Source: Cyanidioschyzon merolae (taxonomy: Eukaryota). Taken from it: DNA of 64,000 nt. Positions 3,671 to 60,803 of the stretch are shown one piece after another; the first letter of the stretch is position 1; every line of letters begins with the position of its first letter. The stretch is taken from the NCBI GenBank assembly GCA_000091205.1, contig AP006495.2; one strand, 5' to 3'. Both the position numbers and the translations under genes were made by a program. The notes below the pieces were generated by a model. The model did not search any database, had not been told where the DNA came from, and worked only from the letters and a program-made list of their open reading frames with translations.

Positions 3671-6328
3671 CTACGAGAGGTCGAATCCGAAATTTTGGGT
3701 AATAGCATACTTCAGCTTCTCCCGCATGGCCTCTCGAGTCGAATATGGGGGGAGTTTGAGCAGATTCATGCACGTGGAGGCCGTGGGATACCGTGATGCG
3801 TCGTCACCAGCTTTTTGAATGCAAAACGGGGGGTTCAGATACTGAAACCCGAGCAGGGGTGCTCTTGGCGAGCTTGTCACGAATTGGAGAAGGGCTGCTC
3901 GCTCTGAGTCCGATAGATCTTCTTGCACAACTTGCCAAAACAGTTCAACCGTTCCCGAGTTCTCGGAGTATCCACCTGAGTATGTTACGTTGCTGCGCAA
4001 GTTGTCAATGTCAATCTTGCCAGAGCAATCGCCTGAGATCAACTCACGAAGCTCCCATTCATTGAACATCTGAATCCATTCTCTCTCGATGACATCGAAG
4101 AAACCGCTCATAAAGGCTGTCGTCTGTGCTTTGATCTGCCGATTCAGCCTATAGTCAGCTACGCGATGCATGTACTCCAGCCGATTGTCCCAAGTCACTG
4201 GAATGGAACTCCCTCCAGGAATCAGCTCCTTCTCAACTGCTTCCCCGAATTCATTGTCGACAACAGTAAATGTCAGACAAAGGTCTCCAAACGAGTTAGG
4301 ATCAGCATGCCGAAGAAATTTCAGATTTCGATGCAGCTCCGGATCCAGAGAACGCAAATCGTTAAGATCATTACTTATACCCAACAGTTTGCGTAAGAAG
4401 AATGATGCTATCGGGAGATCTACCAAGATCGCATCGTAGAGCGCCTTGCCCAGAATACGCCCAAGAAAAGAAAACTGTTCCAAATGATTCGACGGTGCGA
4501 TGACACTCGAGGCCGGATTAGGGAAAAGCTCCCCACCATCTGTTGCCTTAAATAGACCATAATGGGTCGGCGAGAATGCGAATCGAATCAGTTGATGCAT
4601 GAACTCTTTGAAGACACCACCTCCATCAACACCGGCCTCCTCAAGGCCGTACTCGTCCACGAATTTAACTCGAATATTCTCACGAAGTCTGGATCCCAGA
4701 GAGTTCAGTTGCGCAAAAGCATCCTCGACGATAAAGTTACGCCGTATAGTGATCCAAATCCCATTCATACCGAAGAAAGACTGACCTCCGCCGGCTCGCG
4801 CCTTTTCCTGTGCTATGCATCCGTGGAAGATGCGCACGCGCGTCTCAAAAGAGATGGAGAAGGGAGCCATTCGCAGCAGCGGCATACCGCTATTTTTCCG
4901 AACAGATTCACGCACGAACAGCTCCGGTGCCTTGCGTGCAGCCTGAACTTCCCAGAGCGACTCACGTTGTACTGTAAAGGGTCGCCTTGCATCCCTTGCC
5001 CATAGCGCTAGCAACAAGCGACTAGACGCCTGTAGAACGTCAGCCGCGGCCAAGTCCCATTTGTTCCGGCCAGTCGGGCGGGCACCTGTGCTTGTTGTGT
5101 AGAGTCTCCAAAACAGCTGTTCTTTCAACTCATTGATTATCTCCAGAACAAAGGACAGATTGGTCGCAGAGTAAAAGTCATCGTCGTCCATCACTAAGGT
5201 TGATACGCGGAAGGACTCACAGAAGAGTCGAAGCAAGGCCCCCGATGAAGAAATCATGAGCGAATGCCACATTTGACGGAGGTAGTCTCGGGAATGAGAG
5301 AATGCAAGGACAGCGCATACGCGGTGGTTCATAGCATCGTGCTTCTCCAATAGTTCCGCAAAACGCCTCCAGTTTTCCGGATCCCATTCGAGTGCGTGCA
5401 TCAAACTTTTGAGGAAAACGTCGCTCTGAGTTAGTTTTGAAGCGAGCTCGTCCAACGGACCGACCCGATCGACGACAAAGCTCAGCAAGAAAACGTGGTG
5501 TTTCGAGGATGGAAGCGACAGAGTGAGATCGCATATTCTGCGTATTGCACTCTTGCTAAGCGTAACTCCATGTTCTGCAATCAGTTTCGCTAAGCTTTCG
5601 CTGAACAAGTGCGCAGTGGCTGGCATGTCTATGTCATCACTAGTCATCACCAGTGTCGGTGCATCTATGAGGAACCTCCCGAACTCAGCGGATGGTCCAC
5701 ATATACGGCATATTTCCTTTGCAGATTCGCCAGTTGTGCGGCCTCGCATAAGCGCAAGGATGGTATTAGCGAACCGCTGCACGGCTGTAGCACAGCGTCG
5801 AGCATTTTCAAGAAGGAAGGCTTCATCGCCGAGCGCAGCAGCCGATATGAAAATATGGCCTTTTAAAGCTATCGAAACATAAGTACTGCGCACGAGTTCG
5901 CCGATAAGGCCTCGGTGTTCGTACCAGTGTAGCCGTGCCTTGTCATGCTGAGCTTTCGAAAGCTGGACAAGGAAACAGAGCGCACGCACAAATCGTACCG
6001 CCGCGTGCGTGTCGTATGGCAGCGGCCCCTCACTCTGAGCAAGATTCGCGACGCGTTCCACCAACTCCGCTTCTATTATTTTAGAAAGCCGTCTGCACTC
6101 GAAGTACTGCCGTGCCAGTGATTGGATGGCCACAGCTGACCTCTCTTGAGCGCGCTGGGCAGCCCGACGTTCACGCTCCAGACGGGCCTTTAAAAGAATG
6201 CTCTCTCTCGAGGGAGCAACGTTAGATGCGCCACGGAGCGAGATAGCGCTTCTTCCCCCTGTGTCAAACAGCTTCGAAGCAGTGGCTCTCCTCGACGAGA
6301 ACTCACTCTGCATCATACAACACAGCAA
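3671..6328 (-). CDS. HECT-domain E3 ubiquitin ligase, UBE3B/UBE3C (Hul5)-like with N-terminal IQ motif
   Basis: 885-aa uninterrupted ORF. The C-terminal HECT domain ends ...RYPTASTCMNLLKLPPYSTREAMREKLKYAITQNFGFDLS, with the catalytic Cys in TCMNLL. An IQ-like motif AVAIQSLARQYFECRRLSKI lies near the N-terminus. Confidence 0.85.
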   Translation of the reverse strand: MLCCMMQSEFSSRRATASKLFDTGGRSAISLRGASNVAPSRESILLKARLERERRAAQRAQERSAVAIQSLARQYFECRRLSKIIEAELVERVANLAQSEGPLPYDTHAAVRFVRALCFLVQLSKAQHDKARLHWYEHRGLIGELVRSTYVSIALKGHIFISAAALGDEAFLLENARRCATAVQRFANTILALMRGRTTGESAKEICRICGPSAEFGRFLIDAPTLVMTSDDIDMPATAHLFSESLAKLIAEHGVTLSKSAIRRICDLTLSLPSSKHHVFLLSFVVDRVGPLDELASKLTQSDVFLKSLMHALEWDPENWRRFAELLEKHDAMNHRVCAVLAFSHSRDYLRQMWHSLMISSSGALLRLFCESFRVSTLVMDDDDFYSATNLSFVLEIINELKEQLFWRLYTTSTGARPTGRNKWDLAAADVLQASSRLLLALWARDARRPFTVQRESLWEVQAARKAPELFVRESVRKNSGMPLLRMAPFSISFETRVRIFHGCIAQEKARAGGGQSFFGMNGIWITIRRNFIVEDAFAQLNSLGSRLRENIRVKFVDEYGLEEAGVDGGGVFKEFMHQLIRFAFSPTHYGLFKATDGGELFPNPASSVIAPSNHLEQFSFLGRILGKALYDAILVDLPIASFFLRKLLGISNDLNDLRSLDPELHRNLKFLRHADPNSFGDLCLTFTVVDNEFGEAVEKELIPGGSSIPVTWDNRLEYMHRVADYRLNRQIKAQTTAFMSGFFDVIEREWIQMFNEWELRELISGDCSGKIDIDNLRSNVTYSGGYSENSGTVELFWQVVQEDLSDSERAALLQFVTSSPRAPLLGFQYLNPPFCIQKAGDDASRYPTASTCMNLLKLPPYSTREAMREKLKYAITQNFGFDLS

Positions 6329-18066: not shown

Positions 18067-19572
18067 ATGTATGGATGGTCATCGTGCGCCGTTGCACGAG
18101 CGACGGCACATCATATGGCACCTGCGGGTAGGCAGAAATGCAATTTTGACTGCATTGGTGCTCTTAAGCAAGCGCTCAAGCACGCAACCCTCAGGATAAA
18201 CGTCATGAACTCTGCGTTTATTCAACCCTCGGCACACTTATCGAGAACAACAAGTTCGGGTCAGCTAAACTTGCTGACTTCTCAAAGTCAGACGTTGGGT
18301 ACGAACTCTGGCTCACAGAGTGCGTGCCCAGCATCACCGAACTTGGGCACGGGGCCCAGCTATGCGCAGTGGACCCCTGGTTTGGTGACGCCGCCTCTGC
18401 AAGGACCCCCTAACCGAATTCACGCTGCATATTATCACGTGTACCATCATAGCAACCACTTGGCGAACAACATTGTCGCCCGATTGGGAACCCCGACGGC
18501 CACTGCGCTCAATTACTGGCAGCAACCGAGTTGTCCGTTTCTGAGCGGTCAGGAGCGACCGGCAGTACAGAGTGATCTCAGCTTTCTCAGCGGCAGCAAC
18601 TGCGAGGATGAGAACGGAGCGGGGTATCGATTGTTTGAGTCTGTTCTGGACCAGTTGGAAAACACGACTCAGCAAGCGCGAAACGCCTCAACGTTCTGGC
18701 TAACTAGTACCGACGCTGAGCATCCAGATCGAATGGACACTTTCGGAGCCGAAGAGCTCGAAGAACTGGAACAGCAACTTTATCAAGTACCACTAGCAGA
18801 GAGTGAGTACGGAGGGCTAGCTGCCCCAAGCGATAATTTCCTCAGTGCGAATCGTCGCGAGCTTTCACACCAAGAAAGGAGCGCCAGCGCGCCAGAGACG
18901 ATCCAGTGCTCCTCGGACATATACAGTTCAGATGAAGAAGCAACGAGCAGCGAGCATGACAGCGACATCTGCTATGCACAGTTTATGCCAGCTGGAGGCG
19001 CGACTGCAGCGCAAACGCTGAGCCCGCTCTCCGGGAGTAGTGCGGTCGGGACACTTGCCCAACAAGCTCTGCGTGAACACTCCACCGATAACCACCTGGG
19101 CGAGAGACATCTTTTCATAAGAGACAGTGATGTCGCTTTCTACATTGCTCTCACTTCACCGAATATTTCGAAGGCGAGATACACGGATATAATTGCTAAC
19201 ATGAAACGTCGAGGGGTTATCGACACGGGGAACACTGACTGGGAGAAAAAGCTAGTTCAAGTGCGTGCCTCCCGGCCAGTTCCAAAGCACCTGGCACGCG
19301 CAATGAGCGGGGAAAACGCCATCGCATGCGCAGAGCGTGCTGTTTTGGTGGCGAGCGCGCGAGAGAAGGATATTGAAGGGAAATCTGTTGTAACCGAGTG
19401 TGAGAAACTGAGCGCATGCATGACCGTTCCAACGGAGTGGATCGTGCCAGTGGACGCGTCTCGACGAAGAAAAAGTATATCGCTTGATCAGCTGCTGCCG
19501 AGTTTGAACCGAAAGGTCCATCAGTCTAATAACGTGTTGCTCTTCGTGCTACTGAAGAAGCAAGATGCCTAA
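18067..19572 (+). CDS. hypothetical protein, Ser/Thr/Gln-rich low-complexity, no recognisable domain
   Basis: 501-aa uninterrupted ORF in a coding-dense genome. The composition is biased and no known motif is visible; upstream in-frame or overlapping ORFs make the true start uncertain. Confidence 0.35.
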   Translation: MYGWSSCAVARATAHHMAPAGRQKCNFDCIGALKQALKHATLRINVMNSAFIQPSAHLSRTTSSGQLNLLTSQSQTLGTNSGSQSACPASPNLGTGPSYAQWTPGLVTPPLQGPPNRIHAAYYHVYHHSNHLANNIVARLGTPTATALNYWQQPSCPFLSGQERPAVQSDLSFLSGSNCEDENGAGYRLFESVLDQLENTTQQARNASTFWLTSTDAEHPDRMDTFGAEELEELEQQLYQVPLAESEYGGLAAPSDNFLSANRRELSHQERSASAPETIQCSSDIYSSDEEATSSEHDSDICYAQFMPAGGATAAQTLSPLSGSSAVGTLAQQALREHSTDNHLGERHLFIRDSDVAFYIALTSPNISKARYTDIIANMKRRGVIDTGNTDWEKKLVQVRASRPVPKHLARAMSGENAIACAERAVLVASAREKDIEGKSVVTECEKLSACMTVPTEWIVPVDASRRRKSISLDQLLPSLNRKVHQSNNVLLFVLLKKQDA

Positions 19573-38256: not shown

Positions 38257-39636
38257 TTAGGTGAGAAACAAATGCAACGTCTTGCAGGTTCGAGTGTCGG
38301 TATCTGTTACGGATAGCACGACTTGATCGGGAACTTTCGGATGACTGTCAGAAATGAAGATATCGCTCAACGGCCGCTCGAGATTCGGGCTTGTTGCTGC
38401 TTTGAGGCTTTGAGGTACGCTCATGTATACGGGTCGATAATCCCAGACAATTGTGGGACTGCGACAGTGGAGCACAGGATGCCTTTCTAGGAGTTCTATG
38501 AGCTCCTTGACAAGCATGTTTTTCGATACGCTTATGGCAACAGCGGAACCTGGACCACATACAGGACACGATAGTCGTCTCTCGATGAAAATCGAGTCGA
38601 TGTAGAGGCCATCGCTTCCATGAAAACTTGTCCAGGGGCACTGTGCATGAGAGCCGCCCCATACGAGCCTCGTCACTGCGAGTGCACAGGCGGCACCGGT
38701 AACTGCACTCGTTGTCGCCAATGCCGGCACACTGCGGTGCAGGACAGCTTTCACGAGAGCCGTGGTCACACCTTCGATACCGAACGCTGCAGCACGCTCC
38801 TGTGCTCTGGTATAAATCCATTCAAGATGCTCCGGGTTCTCCGGGTCTATGGACCGCACCGCCTGGTCGTCACGTGCAGGCCAAAGAACCGCCTGTGCGT
38901 AATGAATACAGTGCTCTGGCCGCAATGGTGTACCGGCGATCGTGCAAAGCGGTTGCCGACCTGCTTCATCTGGAAACAGATCAAGTATGCACTCGATGCA
39001 GGGCGTTTCATACGGGCGAATCGTTCGGACTTGGCCTGCGAGACCCTCCAGGCCCCCGTCGATGAGCACGGGCAAGTATTTCGACTGAACTGCACAGTTG
39101 GGAGAGGTAACAGGACGTACCACGTGGAACACGACTGTGTTTAACCAGCGGCGAGCCTCAACGGTATCCACACCCGACACGATGACATCAAACGCACGGT
39201 AGAAGGCAACAGGCATCTGTTCCGCGCTCGCCCAATATCCGCGTATTGTGCAGCCTGGAAAGCGCTCTTTAATTGCCTGGGCAGCTCTCAGCGCTTTGCT
39301 GGCACCAACGTCGGCGGAGCTGTAGAGCGTCTGGCGGTTGAGGTTGCTCTCGGCGACCGTGTCCCGGTCGAGCACCACCAGGTTTCGGAAACCACACAAG
39401 GCAAGCGCCCTCAGCGCTTCGCAACCGATCGCCCCCGCACCAACCACCAGAATTTGTAGGTTTGACTTGGCATGCTTCATTCGTACGTCAGTGGTGCATC
39501 GAGTCAGTGCTTCCGGTGCAAGAGCCGCTGGACCGGCGTCATCGGCGTGCGCCAAGAGCTCCGGGGCCGAGTGAGCTGAGCTTGCGTGCATGAAACGACA
39601 ACCCACGCTGGTGCATAGTTGGAAGTATAGGCGCAC
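38257..39636 (-). CDS. UBA3: NEDD8-activating enzyme E1 catalytic subunit (UBA3)
   Basis: ThiF fold starting ILVVGAGAIGCEALRALALCGF...DRDTVAESNLNRQ. The regions LIDGGLEGLAGQVRTIRPYETPCIECILDLFP and CTIAGTPLRPEHCIHYAQ align with the human UBA3 catalytic cysteine domain, and a C-terminal ubiquitin-fold E2-binding region is present. Confidence 0.85.
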   Translation of the reverse strand: MRLYFQLCTSVGCRFMHASSAHSAPELLAHADDAGPAALAPEALTRCTTDVRMKHAKSNLQILVVGAGAIGCEALRALALCGFRNLVVLDRDTVAESNLNRQTLYSSADVGASKALRAAQAIKERFPGCTIRGYWASAEQMPVAFYRAFDVIVSGVDTVEARRWLNTVVFHVVRPVTSPNCAVQSKYLPVLIDGGLEGLAGQVRTIRPYETPCIECILDLFPDEAGRQPLCTIAGTPLRPEHCIHYAQAVLWPARDDQAVRSIDPENPEHLEWIYTRAQERAAAFGIEGVTTALVKAVLHRSVPALATTSAVTGAACALAVTRLVWGGSHAQCPWTSFHGSDGLYIDSIFIERRLSCPVCGPGSAVAISVSKNMLVKELIELLERHPVLHCRSPTIVWDYRPVYMSVPQSLKAATSPNLERPLSDIFISDSHPKVPDQVVLSVTDTDTRTCKTLHLFLT

Positions 39637-43511: not shown

Positions 43512-45062
43512 ATGGCAGCGGTTACCGATACTTTGGGCTCACGACTCGAACTTGAGCGGCGTATTGTGGTTCATATAGATATGGACTGCTTCTACGCTCA
43601 GGTCGAACGGAAACGCCTCGATTTAGCTGAGGACGTCCCGCTTTGTGTCGTCCAGTGGAACAGCATTCTTGCTGTGAGCTACGCAGCTCGAGCAGCAGGG
43701 ATCAAGCGAGGTGCAACACCGCAGGAGGCCAAATCCAAGTGCCCCGAGTGTGTGCTTGTACACGTAGAAACCGTTGATGCTGCCGGAAGGAAACCACAAG
43801 TCTCTGAACTTGACCTGTCTGAGGAAGCCTCTATAGTGCGAGCCGCGAACACCGTCTGCTTAGATCGATATCGGTTGGAGTCCGAGAAGATTTTTGGGAT
43901 TCTCTCCCGCTTTAGTGACGCCGTTGAGCGCTGCTCAATTGACGAAGCTTTCATAGAGCTTACGGACGTGGTCGATGATTTCGACGAGGCAGTCCGTTTG
44001 GTACAGCGCATGCGAGACGCTATCCTTGATGAGCTTAGATACACCTGCAGCGCTGGGGTTGCCTGCAACAAAATGCTCGCTAAGTTCGCTAGCTCTACGA
44101 ACAAACCGAACAAACTGACCGCCATACCTTGGAGCGAGACGAACTCCATTCTCGCCAGGATTCCGCTTTCACGGGTTCGCGGGCTTGGTGGCAAATTCGG
44201 AGCTGAGCTGCAGCGGAACTTTAAGGCCGAAACGCTCGCTGACTTGTCGCAGCTGTCGATGGCAGCGCTGCAGGCCGCATACGAGCCCTGCACAGCGGAA
44301 TGGCTCTTCTGGCTGGCTCGGGGTTATGATCCCAGTCGAGTGGAGCCACGTGATCGTCCGCGGAGTCTGCTAGCGGCGAAATCCTTTGCCCCGGTAGATA
44401 CCTGGCAGGATGCGCGCCGCATCCTCTTCCTGCTGGCAACTCGCCTAGAGCAGCGTATTGAACGCGATACCAGTATGCATCATCGTCGACCGAGAACATT
44501 GTGCGTATCTTTTACTTCTGCGCAAGCGGGACTCCAAGGTCAACGGCATCATCATGCAAGTCGTTCTGGGCCATTTCCAACCTGCGCGAAAGAGGACGCA
44601 GCCGCAAGCATTGCAGAAGGTGCTGAGAAGCTGCTGCGGTCGATACGGTCTGGTTTTCGATTCCCATGCAAGCGCTTTATGCTGGAAGCGACGAACTTTC
44701 AACCCATCGCAAGCGGCGCCTATTCCATACGTTCTTACATGGGCAAACCGGGTAAGCGCGCGCTCAAAGCTGACGTGCCCTCGGGCGGCATCGCAGAATG
44801 CGAGCGCGAGCAGAACCCCATATCTGGGTACGCACCGGCAGCGAGAAATGAATGCAGTTTCGCGGGTGCCACGCCGACACCCGAGCGCGAGCACCAAGGC
44901 ATCGCAAATGCGAAACTAGTTCTTCGGGCTGGCAGTAGCGTTAGCGGTAACGAGGCGCTCGTGAGTCACTGGAAGCGTCACTGCGGAGGTGCGACCAGAC
45001 GCATTCATGACGGCTGTATTACTTGCTACTTTTCGCAGCCGAAGCGCTCTGAAACTCGTTGA
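43512..45062 (+). CDS. POLH: DNA polymerase eta (Y-family translesion polymerase, RAD30/POLH)
   Basis: Opens with IVVHIDMDCFYAQVERKRL...PLCVVQWNSILAVSYAARAAGIKRG, then SIDEAFIELTD, VACNKMLAKFASSTNKPNKLT and LSRVRGLGGKFG, which are the classic Y-family palm, fingers and little-finger motifs. Confidence 0.9.
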   Translation: MAAVTDTLGSRLELERRIVVHIDMDCFYAQVERKRLDLAEDVPLCVVQWNSILAVSYAARAAGIKRGATPQEAKSKCPECVLVHVETVDAAGRKPQVSELDLSEEASIVRAANTVCLDRYRLESEKIFGILSRFSDAVERCSIDEAFIELTDVVDDFDEAVRLVQRMRDAILDELRYTCSAGVACNKMLAKFASSTNKPNKLTAIPWSETNSILARIPLSRVRGLGGKFGAELQRNFKAETLADLSQLSMAALQAAYEPCTAEWLFWLARGYDPSRVEPRDRPRSLLAAKSFAPVDTWQDARRILFLLATRLEQRIERDTSMHHRRPRTLCVSFTSAQAGLQGQRHHHASRSGPFPTCAKEDAAASIAEGAEKLLRSIRSGFRFPCKRFMLEATNFQPIASGAYSIRSYMGKPGKRALKADVPSGGIAECEREQNPISGYAPAARNECSFAGATPTPEREHQGIANAKLVLRAGSSVSGNEALVSHWKRHCGGATRRIHDGCITCYFSQPKRSETR

Positions 45063-45304: not shown

Positions 45305-46660
45305 CTACGGACGAAGAACGAACAGCGCTCCGCGCGGGTATAGCTCGGCATCTTGCAATGTCATCTGATCCAACTCGTGCTCCAGAAATTTCCGCCTAGG
45401 ATAGGTACGCATCAGCGAGATCCGCTCTCCCAAGCTCGGGTAATTGTTGAGTACGTAATTTGCCACATCACGAAGGCGTGTTTCATTGGTGAAGTCCGCT
45501 TCAACATTCGTACCGTCGGGCAACCGCAATTGCAGACGTGTGGGTCTGGTTTCCAATTCTGATTTTTCTACCGCCTTTGGTTGGTTTGTGTTCGGATCGG
45601 GTGGCTGTTCCACGAGGCGTACCGGAGTCGGACCCCGCTGGAGCTCGAGTCGACGCTGACGATCGTCTTCAAGCAGCCTCCGGAGCCGCTCTCGTTCCAT
45701 TTGCTGCTCTCGTTGTTCACGGAGACGTTCTCGAATGTCCCGCTTACGACGCTCTTCTTCCGCTTTGCGCTTGGCCTCCGCTATCTCCTTCCCACTTCGA
45801 ATCCGATTCTTTTCCTGTTCAATAGCGAGTTTCTTCTCTTCGGCCTCTCGCCGTTTCCGCGCTTCCTCTTGGAGCCGTTTCAACATAAGCTGCTTCTCCT
45901 CTTTGGATTTAGAAAGGAGATCTTCGGCGCCAGTGACTCGGACATCCAGCGCTGGGTCCAGCTTATCGATATTTGGATCCTCGTCGTGCGCGAAAATCCA
46001 CTCCATCGCCTTCTCCAAGGATTCATTGTCAGTTGCAATGCAAGCGTTCAAAGCGCGAGTGCGGGGAAATCCCATTGCTTGAAGCTCCTCAAGTATTTTT
46101 TCGGATACAAAGGTCGGCATCGTCTCGCTTGCTGATACAGGAAGCTGTCCCTCGCCCTGGCTCGCCCTGGCTCCAGCGGAACCAGCGGATCCCGTCGTGG
46201 TCTGCAAGCCGTCGGCAACTGCATTCGGACGCGCTATTGGTGTACCCGACGGCGTGCTGTTTGTCGTTGTGGCGGCTTTCGTGTCCTCACTCGTTGCTCT
46301 GGTGCCCAGCGTATGACCCGGCCCAGCAAACGCCACTGGCTGCGCCTGAGCGGCTACTGAACGCTCGAGCGCTGCAACATCCGCTCCCACAATTTCGTCC
46401 ACCTTGTTCCCGTTGAGAAAGAGCTGAAAAGTTGGCATAGCATGCACCCGGCAGAGCTGCGCAACATCTTGAACCTCATCAACGTTCACTTTCACAAAGA
46501 GAACCTGGTGAAACTTCGTTGCGAGCGAGTCTATGAACGGAGCCACCATTCGGCAGGGGCCACACCAGTCGGCGTAAAAGTCCACAACAACCAGTTGCTC
46601 TCTGGAACCATCAATGACGACGCGTCGAAATTCAGTCGCACTATAGATCTGTAACACCAT
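45305..46660 (-). CDS. thioredoxin-UBA-coiled coil-UBX multidomain protein (putative redox-active Cdc48/p97 adaptor)
   Basis: Canonical thioredoxin at the N-terminus (VVDFYADWCGPCRMVAPF...AMPTFQLF). A UBA-like helix bundle (ILEELQAMGFPRTRALNACIATDNESLEKAMEWIF) is followed by a long E/R/K coiled coil and a C-terminal UBX/ubiquitin-like fold (RLQLRLPDGTNVEADFTNETRLRDVANYV...FVLRP). Confidence 0.8.
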   Translation of the reverse strand: MVLQIYSATEFRRVVIDGSREQLVVVDFYADWCGPCRMVAPFIDSLATKFHQVLFVKVNVDEVQDVAQLCRVHAMPTFQLFLNGNKVDEIVGADVAALERSVAAQAQPVAFAGPGHTLGTRATSEDTKAATTTNSTPSGTPIARPNAVADGLQTTTGSAGSAGARASQGEGQLPVSASETMPTFVSEKILEELQAMGFPRTRALNACIATDNESLEKAMEWIFAHDEDPNIDKLDPALDVRVTGAEDLLSKSKEEKQLMLKRLQEEARKRREAEEKKLAIEQEKNRIRSGKEIAEAKRKAEEERRKRDIRERLREQREQQMERERLRRLLEDDRQRRLELQRGPTPVRLVEQPPDPNTNQPKAVEKSELETRPTRLQLRLPDGTNVEADFTNETRLRDVANYVLNNYPSLGERISLMRTYPRRKFLEHELDQMTLQDAELYPRGALFVLRP

Positions 46661-59183: not shown

Positions 59184-60803
59184 TTAGGTACTTCCGCCAG
59201 GAGGCTCACATTGGGCGAGCTGGGACGGCACTGCCGCATCACCTCGAGTCTGCGAGGTGACGTTCGCCCGGGAGCCGTCAGCGCTCTGCTGGAGCCGGAC
59301 AAGTGCCTCCATACCACCGGGAATATCTTCGACGTGCGTGTCAGGCCAGCTCAGGGCCTCGAGCATCCGCACCGCCCGGCGAGATTGAATACCCCTTCTG
59401 CAAACGATTCGAATCCGCTGACCCTGCAACTTCTCTCGTTGGTTCTCAATTGCTTCGGGCCATGAATGCATGGGAAAGTTCAGTGCACCGCGAATATGAC
59501 AGAGAGCGAACTGGTTAGCAGGACGAACGTCCACAACGACTGTTTCAGTCACGGACTGCTTGGACTGGGGTTCGCGTGCATCCCAACTCGGCCCCGAATG
59601 ATTGCTCGTTTCGTTTCTTTGATGCCGATGCCGGTACTCTAGTCTCGAATCAGCGGCTTCTCCAACGCTCTTTGTTCCTGTTTCGGCCGTCGCGCTGCGG
59701 CACAGCTCACATGCGCCTCGGTCGCCATGAAACGTATTGCGCTGCTGTGGAGTCGTTCGGCAAGCGTTTGACTCCAGCGTTTCGGATATGGAATGCGGCG
59801 CCGTGTTCAGCGGCGTCTCTGGCGAAACCATTTCGCTCTTCGTTCCGTGTTGCGCTAGCCATATTTCATCTCGCGTATGCGGGGAAGACTCGCTGGTGTC
59901 GTCTCCACGCAAGGCATCGATAGATGAAGAAGTTTTCGAGCGCATACCTGTATCATGCACCATTCGCGAGAGTTTCGGCGCAAATGTCGCACATACAGAA
60001 CATTTAGCAGTCTGCCTCGGACGAAGCTGCACAAGCCGAAAGCGGTAGCTCAGAGCGTCAAATAGCAGCATCCGACCAGCGAGCGGAAGACCTAGCGCGC
60101 CTATCTGTGACTGTACCAAAAGTACCCGAACGGCCTCTAGCGCTTGCAAGGTTCCGATCATCCCTGGCACCATGCCTAGCACGCCGTCTGTATCACAACT
60201 TCCCTGACACTCTGGTGGCGGGCATTCCGGAAAAATACAGCGGTAACACGGCCCATCGAGCCCGTAGTTTAATAGTGCAAGTTGTGCTTCGAGACCAACC
60301 GCTGCTGCACTGACCAAAGGTCGCTGTTCAGCAACGCAAGCATCGCTCACGGTATAACGCGTTTCGGCATTGTCTGAGCAGTCTAAGACAACGTCGTATT
60401 GTCTCACAACTTGCCTCGCGTTTTCGGTATCAATGCCGCAATCATGGAGCTGCACGTTCACGAGTGGATTCAGAGCTGCGATTGTCTTTGCCAGTGACGC
60501 TGTCTTTCGCTCCCCGACACGTTCTGTTGTATGCCCAATCTGACGGTGAAGGTTCGTGACATCCACAGTGTCTCGATCTGCAAGGCCAAGCGTGCCAATG
60601 CCGGCACCCGCGAGATAGAGCGCCGCTGGGCACCCGAGTCCTCCACAACCGACCACAAGCACCCTGGCGTCCTGCAACCGACGTTGTGCGAGCGGTCCAC
60701 CGAACTCGGGTAGGATGAGCTGCCTCGCGTACCGAGACACGGTTGCCTCGTCGGGATGAAAGACCAGAGGAGGCACCCCAAAAGATTCGATGAAGGCGTT
60801 CAT
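59184..60803 (-). CDS. MOCS3: adenylyltransferase and sulfurtransferase MOCS3/Uba4 (MoeB domain + C-terminal rhodanese domain)
   Basis: MoeB/ThiF region YARQLILPEFGGPLAQRRLQDARVLVVGCGGLGCPAALYLAGAGIG...DTVDVTNLHRQ with the zinc motif CYRCIFPECPPPEC...GVLG. The rhodanese domain VVVDVRPANQFALCHIRGALNFP carries the active-site loop CRRGIQSRRA. A low-complexity insertion sits in the linker. Confidence 0.9.
   Translation of the reverse strand: MNAFIESFGVPPLVFHPDEATVSRYARQLILPEFGGPLAQRRLQDARVLVVGCGGLGCPAALYLAGAGIGTLGLADRDTVDVTNLHRQIGHTTERVGERKTASLAKTIAALNPLVNVQLHDCGIDTENARQVVRQYDVVLDCSDNAETRYTVSDACVAEQRPLVSAAAVGLEAQLALLNYGLDGPCYRCIFPECPPPECQGSCDTDGVLGMVPGMIGTLQALEAVRVLLVQSQIGALGLPLAGRMLLFDALSYRFRLVQLRPRQTAKCSVCATFAPKLSRMVHDTGMRSKTSSSIDALRGDDTSESSPHTRDEIWLAQHGTKSEMVSPETPLNTAPHSISETLESNACRTTPQQRNTFHGDRGACELCRSATAETGTKSVGEAADSRLEYRHRHQRNETSNHSGPSWDAREPQSKQSVTETVVVDVRPANQFALCHIRGALNFPMHSWPEAIENQREKLQGQRIRIVCRRGIQSRRAVRMLEALSWPDTHVEDIPGGMEALVRLQQSADGSRANVTSQTRGDAAVPSQLAQCEPPGGST

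What the first reader, a model, noticed from the sequence alone, without database searches (positions are those of the whole stretch)
45305..46660. Unusual thioredoxin-UBA-UBX domain fusion
A bona fide thioredoxin with an intact WCGPC active site is fused to a UBA-like domain, a long charged coiled coil and a C-terminal UBX fold. Known UBA-UBX adaptors of Cdc48/p97 (FAF1, UBXD7, UBXD8, SAKS1) carry at most a degenerate thioredoxin-like UAS domain lacking the catalytic cysteines. A redox-active thioredoxin physically coupled to a p97 adaptor is not a standard architecture and could link disulfide reduction to segregase activity.
Basis: partly seen in the sequence, partly recalled or inferred. 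Interest (0 to 1): 0.6.

Follow-up and report, generated by a model that had tools for sequence, protein, structure and literature searches.

The report
Thioredoxin-carrying Cdc48/p97 adaptor, red alga
This red-algal gene encodes a Cdc48/p97 adaptor of the UBXN1 type with an intact thioredoxin and a second p97-docking motif at its front end; the family is widespread in protists and barely studied, and it probably places a disulfide reductase on the unfoldase.

Summary
Window 45305-46660 (-) is one 451-aa ORF. Pfam finds Thioredoxin (94 bits, WCGPC at 32-36), UBA (64 and 39 bits) and UBX (54.5 bits), all far above threshold.

A profile of this motif from family members finds p47, UFD1 and Shp1 SHP boxes as the top PDB hits. 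The "coiled coil" looks more like a charged single helix.

Residues 189-450 align along their full length with animal UBXN1 (E=8e-19). So the protein is Trx-SHP fused to a UBXN1/SAKS1-type adaptor.

It is not a one-off. An exhaustive search found at least 62 clusters with Trx+UBA+UBX, in red algae, glaucophytes, Amoebozoa, Heterolobosea and CRuMs. Intact thioredoxins are also fused to other p97 cofactors: UBXN4-like, PUB proteins, PNGase.

Dictyostelium UBXD18, which co-precipitates with p97, is probably a member. I did not confirm that link by accession.

Best reading: UBX and SHP dock on the Cdc48 N-domain, UBA binds ubiquitin chains, and the tethered thioredoxin reduces client disulfides. 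This parallels TXNL1 on the proteasome. The domains and motifs are shown; the activity is inferred.

It is a new member of an under-described family, of moderate interest.

The parts
45305..46660 (-). Complete single-exon CDS, 451 aa plus stop: Trx-SHP-linker-UBA-helix-UBX
   Evidence: ORF list. The same protein, apart from N406K, is on 10 metagenome contigs. Full-length orthologues share 36-58% identity.
46340..46660 (-). Thioredoxin domain, aa 1-107, classical TRX1/h-type
   Evidence: PF00085 at 94.3 bits. 48-49% identical to human TRX1, rmsd 0.9 A, TM 0.96. pLDDT 87-92. D27, W32, C33, C36 and cis-Pro P76 are invariant in the red-algal orthologues.
46553..46567 (-). Active-site motif WCGPC, C33 and C36
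   Evidence: Translation. WCGPC is present in 62 of 80 family members, and most of the rest carry a near variant such as WCPPC.
46307..46330 (-). SHP box (binding site 1) FAGPGHTL, aa 111-118. Predicted to bind the Nc lobe of the Cdc48 N-domain
   Evidence: Translation. It matches the published consensus F-x-G-x-G-x-x-h (PMC8181520) and Ufd1 225-FRAFSGSGNRL-235 (PMC5042407). The motif lies 76-92 residues after the first catalytic Cys in 42 of 80 family members. The chance of finding it in that 40-residue stretch is 0.0004 per shuffled protein. A profile of the motif retrieves p47 (E=8e-6), UFD1 (E=0.007) and Shp1 as top hits in the whole PDB. It lies in a disordered segment.
46115..46303 (-). 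Disordered T/A/S/G-rich linker, aa 120-182
   Evidence: pLDDT 28-40. Composition. Length and sequence are not conserved among orthologues.
45965..46105 (-). UBA domain, aa 186-232, with the MGF loop (AMGFPRTRA). Predicted ubiquitin-chain receptor
   Evidence: PF22562 at 64.2 bits and PF00627 at 39.4 bits. The best single-domain PDB match is the UBA of SAKS1/UBXN1, 1whc, at 37.5 bits. Three-helix bundle with pLDDT 84-88. Translation.
45638..45904 (-). Charged 89-residue helix, aa 253-341. Collinear with the central helix of UBXN1; either a single alpha-helix or a coiled coil
   Evidence: AF2 predicts one helix with pLDDT up to 96. 63% charged, with weak heptad signal. It aligns with the central region of springtail UBXN1-A.
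45314..45547 (-). UBX domain, aa 372-449. Predicted to bind the Nn-Nc cleft of the Cdc48 N-domain
   Evidence: PF00789 at 54.5 bits. It aligns with the UBX domains of UBXN7, UBXN4, p47 and FAF1. Beta-grasp secondary structure with pLDDT 82-92.
45395..45403 (-). S3/S4 loop Y420-P421-R422, the (F/Y)PR p97-contact signature. The strand-1 partner is R379 in 'LRLPDG'
   Evidence: Translation. The loop aligns column for column with the FPR of UBXN7 and UBXN4 and the FPN of p47. P421 is the only invariant column across 80 family members.

Best explanation
The gene encodes a cytosolic or nuclear Cdc48/p97 adaptor of the UBXN1/SAKS1 type that carries its own disulfide reductase.

Proposed mechanism:
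1. The C-terminal UBX domain (R379, Y420-P421-R422) inserts into the Nn-Nc cleft of a Cdc48 N-domain.
2. The SHP box (aa 111-118) binds the outer face of the Nc lobe of the same or a neighbouring N-domain. This gives p47-like bipartite docking.
3. The UBA domain captures ubiquitin chains on the client.
4. The SHP box starts only a few residues after the last thioredoxin helix, so the WCGPC thioredoxin is held on the N-domain ring beside the D1 pore entrance.
5. There it reduces intra- or intermolecular disulfides in ubiquitylated, oxidatively damaged or aggregated clients, so that they can be unfolded and threaded.
6. The thioredoxin is recycled by NADPH-thioredoxin reductase.

Shown here: the ORF, all four modules and their signature residues, full-length collinearity with UBXN1, and conservation of the whole arrangement across eukaryotic supergroups.

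Inferred: Cdc48 binding, ubiquitin binding, reductase activity, and the client as the target of reduction.
For: - Domains and motifs.
- UBXN1 relationship: aa 189-450 align with residues 4-324 of springtail 'UBX domain-containing protein 1-A' at E=8e-19. The nearest thioredoxin-free relatives are UBXN1-type proteins.
- SHP box: it sits at a fixed position after the thioredoxin in 42 of 80 family members. It is absent from all 7 thioredoxin-free UBXN1-like relatives examined. Among hits without a UBX it occurs only in the related Trx-UBA proteins, never in the multi-thioredoxin PDI-like hits. Its profile finds the SHP boxes of p47, UFD1 and Shp1 as best matches in 177,635 PDB sequences.
- Family scale: of the 80 aligned proteins, 80 have UBX, 77 Thioredoxin and 64 UBA_7 by Pfam. 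WCGPC is kept in 62 of 80, which argues for selection on catalysis.
- Recurrent fusions ('Rosetta stone' argument). Intact thioredoxins are joined to different p97-binding modules: Trx-SHP-UBX in green algae, Trx-SHP-UBXN4 in a mite, UBXN4-Trx in a weevil, UBA-UBX-Trx in Trimastix, and Trx-SHP-UBA-PUB. Published cases are diatom sPUB (PMC3101018) and C. elegans PNG-1, whose thioredoxin domain has reductase activity in vitro (PMC8997433).
- Homologue experiment: Dictyostelium UBXD18 co-immunoprecipitates with p97 (PMC7519326). It is probably P0248, which is Trx-UBA-ZZ-UBX.
- Precedent for the logic: TXNL1 places a thioredoxin domain near the proteasome's substrate channel, and its authors propose co-degradational reduction of substrates (PMC12700817).
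Against: - There is no biochemical evidence for this protein or for any confirmed family member's thioredoxin domain.
- The cytosol already contains free thioredoxin, so tethering may serve regulation rather than client reduction.
- AAA+ unfoldases can thread some disulfide-linked or branched chains. This is stated for the proteasome in PMC12700817, so reduction may not be obligatory.
- The SHP box is degenerate in some lineages. Dictyostelium has FASQGNAL, and Galdieria and Sappinia lack the Phe.
- A 60-residue disordered linker separates the Trx-SHP unit from the UBA, so the geometry is loose.
- The identity of UBXD18 with P0248 was not verified by accession.
Confidence: 0.55

Rival explanations
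1. The tethered thioredoxin acts on the machine, not on the client. It keeps oxidation-sensitive cysteines of Cdc48 or of co-bound cofactors reduced, or resets them after oxidative stress. That would preserve ATPase activity in an acidic, hot, metal-rich habitat.
For: The same docking modules, UBX and SHP, would serve this purpose equally well. [quoted passage not shown] From my own knowledge, not checked here: mammalian p97 is reported to be inactivated by oxidation of a D2 Walker-A cysteine.
Against: A UBA domain is conserved in 64 of 80 members. That points to ubiquitylated clients and would be unnecessary for self-maintenance. The SHP and UBX sites lie on the N-domain, far from the D2 ring. 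I did not examine the Cdc48 of this organism for candidate cysteines.
Confidence: 0.15
2. The thioredoxin is a redox sensor or a client receptor rather than a turnover reductase. Its oxidation state could switch adaptor conformation or Cdc48 binding. Alternatively it could capture oxidised proteins through a mixed disulfide and hand them to Cdc48.
For: A conserved extra cysteine, C70, is invariant in the red-algal orthologues. By my own numbering of human TRX1 it corresponds to C69, so regulatory thiol chemistry is possible. The adaptor architecture fits selective recruitment. UBXD18 mediates a small-molecule effect on p97 activity in Dictyostelium (PMC7519326), which shows that the family can be regulatory.
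Against: The resolving cysteine C36 is conserved together with C33 in nearly all members. That favours complete catalytic cycles over stable trapping. Nothing in the sequence indicates an intramolecular partner for the thioredoxin domain, and the AF2 model shows independent domains with pTM 0.29.
Confidence: 0.15
3. The thioredoxin fold acts without redox chemistry, as a holdase or scaffold that keeps unfolding clients soluble. The CxxC motif would then be retained for stability.
For: TXNL1 is reported to have an ATP- and redox-independent chaperone activity in addition to its reductase activity (PMC10570131).
Against: Catalytic residues are strictly retained: W32, C33, P35, C36, D27 and cis-Pro76. 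This holds across lineages that diverged more than a billion years ago. In contrast, the truly non-catalytic UAS and UBX7_N thioredoxin-like domains of other UBX proteins have lost CxxC (PMC8181520).
Confidence: 0.08
4. The fusion is an artefact: a chimeric metagenome assembly, or two adjacent genes read as one.
For: The source is a metagenome, and there is no transcript evidence for this exact locus.
Against: There is one open frame with no internal stop. The same protein, apart from N406K, lies on 10 contigs, with four samples shown. The same domain order occurs in genome- and transcriptome-derived proteins of Cyanidiococcus, Cyanidium, Galdieria, Porphyridium, Cyanophora, Dictyostelium, Willaertia and others.
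Confidence: 0.01

Closest known systems
UBXN1 / SAKS1 (animal UBA-helix-UBX adaptor of p97)
   Same: The order UBA, long charged helix, UBX is the same. The alignment runs end to end (window aa 189-450 against residues 4-324 of springtail UBXN1-A, 28% identity, E=8e-19). The UBA's best single-domain PDB match is the SAKS1 UBA, 1whc. The MGFPR loop and the (F/Y)PRR loop are shared.
   Different: UBXN1 has no thioredoxin and no SHP box; none of the 7 thioredoxin-free relatives examined has the motif. Some UBXN1 relatives carry a small C2H2 zinc finger that is absent here.
Dictyostelium discoideum UBXD18 (DDB_G0276057; Warren et al. 2020, PMC7519326)
   Same: It is described as having a UBA and a UBX domain, with UBXN1 and UBXD2 as the closest human proteins, and it co-immunoprecipitates with Dictyostelium p97. 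The D. discoideum family member P0248 is Trx(WCGPC)-UBA-ZZ-helix-UBX. Its UBX is 28% identical and 54% similar to human UBXN4, against 27% and 51% reported for UBXD18. Its UBA lies about a third of the way along the protein, which fits the paper's 'central' insertion site.
   Different: I did not verify that UBXD18 is P0248 by accession. The paper never mentions a thioredoxin domain. Dictyostelids add a ZZ zinc finger, and their SHP box is degenerate (FASQGNAL).
p47 / Shp1 family (SHP box plus UBX, bipartite p97 binding)
   Same: It combines an SHP box with a C-terminal UBX and an N-terminal UBA. The family's motif profile hits both p47 SHP boxes best in the whole PDB (E=8e-6).
   Different: There is no SEP domain here. 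The SHP box follows a thioredoxin instead of flanking a SEP domain, and the UBX loop is YPR rather than FPN.
TXNL1 / TRP32 (thioredoxin plus PITH domain on the 26S proteasome)
   Same: The logic is the same: a catalytic thioredoxin is tethered by a docking module to a ubiquitin-dependent AAA+ unfoldase near its substrate entrance. Co-translocational reduction of substrates is proposed for TXNL1 (PMC12700817, PMC12700798, PMC10570131).
   Different: The docking module is different (PITH on Rpn11/Rpn2/Rpn10 against SHP plus UBX on the Cdc48 N-domain), and so is the machine. No PITH hit was found here. This is analogy, not homology beyond the thioredoxin fold.
Other thioredoxin fusions to p97 cofactors: diatom sPUB (Trx+PUB) and nematode PNG-1 (Trx+PNGase)
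   Same: A CxxC thioredoxin is fused to a module of the Cdc48/ERAD pathway. A redox role linked to Cdc48 was proposed for sPUB (PMC3101018), and reductase activity was shown in vitro for PNG-1 (PMC8997433). Nematode PNGases appear among the thioredoxin hits of this protein.
   Different: The partner domains differ. The sPUB thioredoxin is of the YbbN type and the protein is targeted to the periplastidal compartment (PMC12412216). The protein here has no targeting extension and a TRX1-type thioredoxin.
UAS-containing UBA-UBX adaptors (FAF1, UBXD7/UBXN7, UBXD8/FAF2)
   Same: They have a UBA at one end, a UBX at the other, and a thioredoxin-superfamily fold in the same polypeptide.
   Different: The UAS domain lacks CxxC and lies between the UBA and the UBX (PMC8181520). 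Here the fold is a classical catalytic thioredoxin placed before the UBA. Thioredoxin_7 (PF13899), the Pfam family that did hit the thioredoxin-like domains of other members, gave no match here at E<=1.

Membership tests
UBX-domain Cdc48/p97 cofactors | UBX domain above the curated Pfam threshold | tested here: met
   PF00789 at 54.5 bits against a cut-off of 21, aa 372-448. No ubiquitin-family hit.
UBX-domain Cdc48/p97 cofactors | p97-contact signature: Arg in strand 1 and the (F/Y)PR S3/S4 loop | tested here: met
   R379 in LRLPDG and Y420-P421-R422 align with the same positions in UBXN7, UBXN4, FAF1 and p47. P421 is invariant in 80 members. Phe to Tyr is a conservative change.
UBX-domain Cdc48/p97 cofactors | Physical binding to the Cdc48/p97 N-domain | not testable with these tools
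   Indirect only: the probable Dictyostelium orthologue UBXD18 co-immunoprecipitates with p97 (PMC7519326).
UBXN1/SAKS1-type UBA-UBX adaptors | A UBA with an MGF loop, a central charged helix and a C-terminal UBX, collinear with UBXN1 | tested here: met
   UBA_7 at 64.2 bits and UBA at 39.4 bits. Best UBA match is 1whc, SAKS1. BLASTP against UBXN1-A gives E=8e-19 over aa 189-450.
UBXN1/SAKS1-type UBA-UBX adaptors | The UBA sits at the extreme N-terminus with no catalytic domain | tested here: not met
   A 107-aa thioredoxin, an SHP box and a 60-aa linker precede the UBA. It is therefore a derived or extended form, not a plain UBXN1.
Classical thioredoxin (TRX1/h-type) | Thioredoxin fold with WCGPC, the buried Asp and the cis-Pro | tested here: met
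   PF00085 at 94.3 bits. WCGPC at 32-36. D27 and P76 are invariant. The model superposes on human TRX1 at rmsd 0.9 A, TM 0.96, 48-49% identity.
Classical thioredoxin (TRX1/h-type) | Disulfide reductase activity, recycled by thioredoxin reductase | not testable with these tools
   Needs an insulin or DTNB assay with NTR and NADPH.
SHP-box (BS1) p97 cofactors | Linear motif F-x-G-x-G-x-x-h in a disordered region | tested here: met
   F111-A-G-P-G-H-T-L118, in a segment with pLDDT below 50 from residue 110. Consensus from PMC8181520 and PMC5042407. The probability of chance occurrence in that stretch is 0.0004.
SHP-box (BS1) p97 cofactors | Sequence similarity to experimentally defined SHP boxes beyond the bare consensus | tested here: met
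   A 22-column profile of the family motif finds p47 (E=8e-6), UFD1 including 227-AFSGSGNRL-235 (E=0.007), and Shp1 (E=0.14) as top hits among 177,635 PDB sequences.
SHP-box (BS1) p97 cofactors | Binding to the Nc lobe of the p97 N-domain | not testable with these tools
   Needs ITC, a pull-down, or a co-structure. The Ufd1 SHP box alone binds weakly, with Kd about 221 uM (PMC5042407).
UAS-domain UBA-UBX adaptors (FAF1/UBXD7/UBXD8) | A UAS thioredoxin-like domain without CxxC, located between the UBA and the UBX | tested here: not met
   The region between the UBA and the UBX is a single helix plus disordered linkers. The thioredoxin fold is N-terminal and catalytic. Thioredoxin_7 gave no match at E<=1.
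TXNL1 family | Thioredoxin followed by a PITH (DUF1000) domain | tested here: not met
   No PITH (PF06201) hit at E<=1. The C-terminal domain is a UBX. The resemblance is functional analogy only.
Trx-(SHP)-UBA-UBX family (uncharacterised; database names 'Thioredoxin', 'UBX domain-containing protein', 'ZZ-type zinc finger-containing protein') | Full-length collinear homology, with the same domain order and a conserved CxxC | tested here: met
   The profile of 6 red-algal sequences aligns in a single stretch over positions about 1-445 with proteins from glaucophytes, Amoebozoa, Heterolobosea and CRuMs. Pfam on 80 members gives UBX in 80, Thioredoxin in 77 and UBA_7 in 64.

The most novel reading that the evidence does not exclude
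Trx-SHP is an ancient, mobile 'reductase cassette' for Cdc48/p97. The Trx-SHP-UBA-UBX protein would be an ancestral eukaryotic adaptor that was lost, or stripped down to UBXN1, in animals, fungi and land plants. It would perform obligatory reduction of disulfide-locked ubiquitylated clients during unfolding at the D1 pore entrance. That would make it the p97 counterpart of TXNL1 on the proteasome, and would mean that disulfide reduction is a general built-in step of ubiquitin-dependent unfolding.
Probability: 0.3. Interest if true: 0.65.

Novelty: new member of a known kind. Interest (0 to 1): 0.42.

Why it matters
How ubiquitin-dependent unfoldases cope with disulfide-crosslinked or oxidatively damaged clients is unresolved, and TXNL1 on the proteasome has only recently been visualised. 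This gene belongs to a broadly conserved and almost unstudied family that carries a catalytically intact thioredoxin together with two p97 N-domain docking elements and a ubiquitin receptor.

Intact thioredoxins have been fused again and again to different p97-binding modules: UBX, UBXN4, PUB and PNGase. That pattern is a strong comparative argument that p97 and thioredoxin work together.

The hypothesis can be tested directly in Dictyostelium, where a ubxd18 knockout exists, or in the transformable red alga Cyanidioschyzon. For a hot, acidic habitat it also suggests a proteostasis adaptation. The particular window gene is, however, an ordinary orthologue within that family.

Tried and rejected
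1. Foldseek of the full-length model against the PDB returned only thioredoxins. The domains are independently oriented (pTM 0.29), so it said nothing about the UBX or the overall architecture. I relied on HMM and sequence alignments for the UBX instead.
2. Ten literature searches found no paper that describes a Trx-UBA-UBX architecture. They returned only analogues (sPUB, PNG-1, TXNL1) and UBXD18.
3. I tried to prove that UBXD18 (DDB_G0276057) is P0248. The paper, its supplement and a follow-up review give no sequence, length or mention of thioredoxin. The link stays circumstantial.
4. I considered a SELMA or periplastid component like sPUB and rejected it. Red algae have primary plastids. 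The ORF has no N-terminal extension, because M1 is the first start codon after the upstream stop and aligns with residue 1 of human TRX1.
5. I considered membership of the UAS family and of the TXNL1 family. Both were rejected because a defining domain is missing.
6. I considered that UBXN4's degenerate N-terminal thioredoxin-like domain descends from this catalytic thioredoxin. This is not supported. The mite protein P0130 has both a catalytic thioredoxin and a weak (sub-threshold) UBX7_N match, and the weevil protein P0244 carries the catalytic thioredoxin at the C-terminus. That points to independent fusions.
7. I did not attempt a phylogeny to separate a single origin from repeated origins. 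The domains are too short and the taxon labels too sparse.
Full report
**1. The observation.**
Window 45305..46660 (minus strand) is a single 451-aa ORF with an ATG start. No earlier in-frame start codon follows the preceding stop. Pfam-A scores, all far above the gathering cut-offs:

| Family | Residues | Bits | Cut-off |
|---|---|---|---|
| Thioredoxin PF00085 | 6-100 | 94.3 | 23.5 |
| UBA_7 PF22562 | 187-232 | 64.2 | 27 |
| UBA PF00627 | 186-222 | 39.4 | 22.4 |
| UBX PF00789 | 372-448 | 54.5 | 21 |

No ubiquitin or PITH family appears. WCGPC is at residues 32-36.

The N-terminal 105 residues are 48-49% identical to human thioredoxin-1 and align from residue 1. An AlphaFold2 model built on six orthologues superposes on human TRX1 at 0.9 A with TM 0.96.

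The model shows four confident modules: Trx 1-107, UBA 187-224, one helix 253-341 and UBX 374-449. They are separated by disordered linkers at 110-179 and 343-370.

The same protein, with a single N406K difference, is encoded on 10 contigs. The four places shown come from ENA, JGI and Logan samples, with identical neighbours.

**2. Context.**
The window is intron-poor eukaryotic nuclear DNA of about 52% GC. The best named orthologues of the gene are:
- Cyanidiococcus yangmingshanensis, 58% identity.
- Cyanidium caldarium, 37% identity.
- Timspurckia oligopyrenoides, 36% identity.

The source is therefore an uncultured cyanidiophyte red alga from a metagenome. Neighbouring genes are ordinary nuclear genes: a Y-family DNA polymerase, a beta-ketoacyl synthase, MRS2, a NEDD8-E1-like protein, a HECT E3 and a Uba4/MOCS3-like protein. 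Nothing suggests an operon-like functional cluster.

**3.
All six red-algal orthologues share an invariant F-x-G-x-G-x-x-L-G immediately after the thioredoxin fold. In the window it is F111-A-G-P-G-H-T-L118.

This is the published SHP box, or BS1, consensus F-x-G-x-G-x-x-h (PMC8181520). The SHP box is a linear motif of p47/Shp1, Ufd1 and Derlin-1 that binds the Nc lobe of the p97 N-domain, at a site distinct from the UBX site. The Ufd1 example is 225-FRAFSGSGNRL-235 (PMC5042407).

Evidence that the motif is a real SHP box:
- Among 80 proteins carrying Trx and UBX, 42 have the motif 76-92 residues after the first catalytic cysteine. A relaxed form is present in 60 of 80.
- The chance of a strict match in that 40-residue stretch is 0.0004 per shuffled protein.
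- None of 7 thioredoxin-free UBXN1-like relatives has it.
- Among hits without a UBX, it occurs only in the related Trx-UBA proteins, never in the multi-thioredoxin PDI-like hits.
- A 22-column profile built only from this family's motif was searched against all 177,635 distinct PDB sequences. The top hits were p47 (both SHP boxes, E=8e-6), UFD1 (both, including AFSGSGNRL, E=0.007), yeast Shp1 and VCPIP1.

I therefore treat the motif as a genuine SHP box by sequence. Binding remains untested.

**4. The rest of the protein is a UBXN1/SAKS1-type adaptor.**
- The UBA's best single-domain PDB match is the SAKS1/UBXN1 UBA, 1whc.
- The nearest thioredoxin-free relatives found with residues 181-451 are UBXN1-type proteins from Capsaspora and a springtail.
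- BLASTP aligns window residues 189-450 with residues 4-324 of springtail UBXN1-A at E=8e-19.
- The UBX aligns with the p97-binding UBX domains of UBXN7, UBXN4, p47 and FAF1. The strand-1 arginine (R379 in LRLPDG) and the S3/S4 loop (Y420-P421-R422) fall on the FPR or FPN position. P421 is the only invariant column in 80 family members.
- The central helix is 63% charged, with weak heptad hydrophobicity. It may be a single alpha-helix rather than a coiled coil.

**5. It is a family, not a one-off.**
A profile of six red-algal sequences was searched against 1.84 billion representative proteins. Custom domain HMMs on the best 150 hits, plus the named first-search hits, found 62 proteins with Trx+UBA+UBX and 80 with Trx+UBX. 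A curated set of 80 Trx- and UBX-bearing proteins was then aligned. Pfam on that set gave UBX in 80, Thioredoxin in 77 and UBA_7 in 64. WCGPC was kept in 62, and most others carry near variants.

Names recovered for 30 clusters and from word-based searches place the full architecture in these groups:
- Red algae: Galdieria, Cyanidiococcus, Cyanidium, Porphyridium, Timspurckia, Rhodosorus.
- Glaucophytes: Cyanophora, Gloeochaete.
- Amoebozoa: Dictyostelium, Tieghemostelium, Polysphondylium, Acytostelium, Ceratiomyxa, Sappinia, Planoprotostelium. The dictyostelid and Ceratiomyxa proteins insert a ZZ zinc finger.
- Heterolobosea: Willaertia, Acrasis.
- CRuMs: Diphylleia.

Variants also exist:
- Trx-SHP-UBX of about 225 aa in green algae (Trebouxia).
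- Trx-UBX-UBX-Trx in a pedinophyte.
- A permuted UBA-helix-UBX-Trx in Trimastix.
- Trx-SHP fused to a UBXN4-like protein in a mite, and UBXN4-Trx in a weevil.
- A sister architecture Trx-SHP-UBA-(zinc finger)-PUB.

None of the clusters I could name came from vertebrates, fungi or land plants. Most clusters are unnamed, so I cannot claim absence from those groups.

**6. Literature.**
No paper in the searchable library describes a Trx-UBA-UBX protein. Related precedents do exist:
- Diatom sPUB is a thioredoxin plus a PUB domain, proposed to regulate SELMA through Cdc48 (PMC3101018, PMC12412216).
- C. elegans PNG-1 has a thioredoxin domain in place of the PUB domain, with disulfide reductase activity in vitro (PMC8997433).
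- TXNL1 places its thioredoxin domain near the proteasome's central channel. Its authors favour co-degradational reduction of substrates (PMC12700817, PMC12700798, PMC10570131).

Dictyostelium UBXD18 (DDB_G0276057) was isolated in a decanoic-acid resistance screen. It has UBA and UBX domains, its closest human proteins are UBXN1 and UBXD2, and it co-immunoprecipitates with p97 (PMC7519326).

The D. discoideum member of the present family is P0248, which is Trx-UBA-ZZ-UBX. It fits every stated property of UBXD18, including the UBX identity to UBXN4 (28%/54% here against 27%/51% reported). The accession link could not be checked. I put it at roughly 75%.

**7. Mechanism.**
Best-supported reading (confidence 0.55):
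- The UBX and the SHP box give p47-like bipartite docking on Cdc48 N-domains.
- The UBA recruits ubiquitylated clients.
- The thioredoxin is anchored within a few residues of the SHP box, so it sits on the N-domain ring beside the D1 pore.
- There it reduces client disulfides so that the clients can be unfolded, and it is recycled by thioredoxin reductase.

The architecture, motifs and conservation are shown. Binding, catalysis and the target of reduction are inferred.

Rivals are: reduction of Cdc48 itself (0.15), a redox switch or mixed-disulfide client receptor (0.15), a redox-independent chaperone (0.08) and an artefact (0.01). Conservation of both cysteines and of the UBA argues for client-directed catalysis. 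Abundant free cytosolic thioredoxin, and the known tolerance of AAA+ motors for some crosslinks, argue for caution.

**8. Comparison and verdict.**
By membership tests the protein is a UBX-domain cofactor, a classical thioredoxin and an SHP-box protein. It is collinear with UBXN1 but extended at the N-terminus. It is not a UAS-type adaptor and not a TXNL1.

The window gene is a new member of an existing, database-visible family. That family as a whole is an under-described variant of the UBA-UBX adaptors. Interest is moderate at 0.42. The family-level hypothesis of a conserved Trx-SHP reductase cassette for p97 would be more interesting if it were confirmed.

Noticed in passing
window 45443-45445 (codon 406 of the minus-strand CDS): The window encodes N406, where the database representative P0001 and its contigs encode K406. 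This looks like a single-residue population variant among the metagenome contigs.
   Followed up: partly
window 3671-6328(-), 38257-39636(-), 59184-60803(-): Three further ubiquitin or ubiquitin-like system genes share the 64-kb window: a HECT E3, a NEDD8-E1 catalytic-subunit-like protein (ThiF+E2_bind) and a Uba4/MOCS3-like protein (ThiF+rhodanese). This is probably coincidence.
   Followed up: no
window 18067-19572(+): A 501-aa ORF has no Pfam match at E<=1e-5.
   Followed up: no
window 45638-45904(-), aa 253-341: The 'coiled coil' is 63% D/E/K/R and 18% LIVMF, with at most 36% hydrophobic a/d occupancy and many i/i+4 opposite-charge pairs. It resembles an ER/K single alpha-helix that could act as a rigid spacer between the UBA and the UBX.
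   Followed up: partly
proteins P0268-P0271, P0105, P0120, P0131-P0133, P0141 and others: A sister architecture, Trx-SHP-UBA-(C2H2 zinc finger)-PUB, keeps the same Trx-SHP cassette. It swaps the N-domain-binding UBX for a PUB domain, which binds the p97 C-terminal tail. I did not look up its taxonomy.
   Followed up: partly
proteins P0130 (mite Halotydeus destructor), P0244 (weevil Sitophilus oryzae), P0119 (Trimastix marina), P0099 (Pedinophyceae): Catalytic WCGPC thioredoxins are apparently fused independently to UBX proteins in different positions: Trx-SHP-UBX7_N-UBX, UBX7_N-UBX-Trx, UBA-helix-UBX-Trx and Trx-UBX-UBX-Trx.
   Followed up: partly
window 43512-45062(+) against 45305-46660(-): A Y-family DNA polymerase gene converges on the Trx-UBX gene, leaving 242 bp between the two stop codons. 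The pairing is kept in all four metagenome loci shown.
   Followed up: no
aa C70 of the protein (window 46451-46453): An extra cysteine is invariant in the six red-algal orthologues. By my own numbering of human TRX1 it lies at the position of Cys69, a possible regulatory thiol.
   Followed up: no
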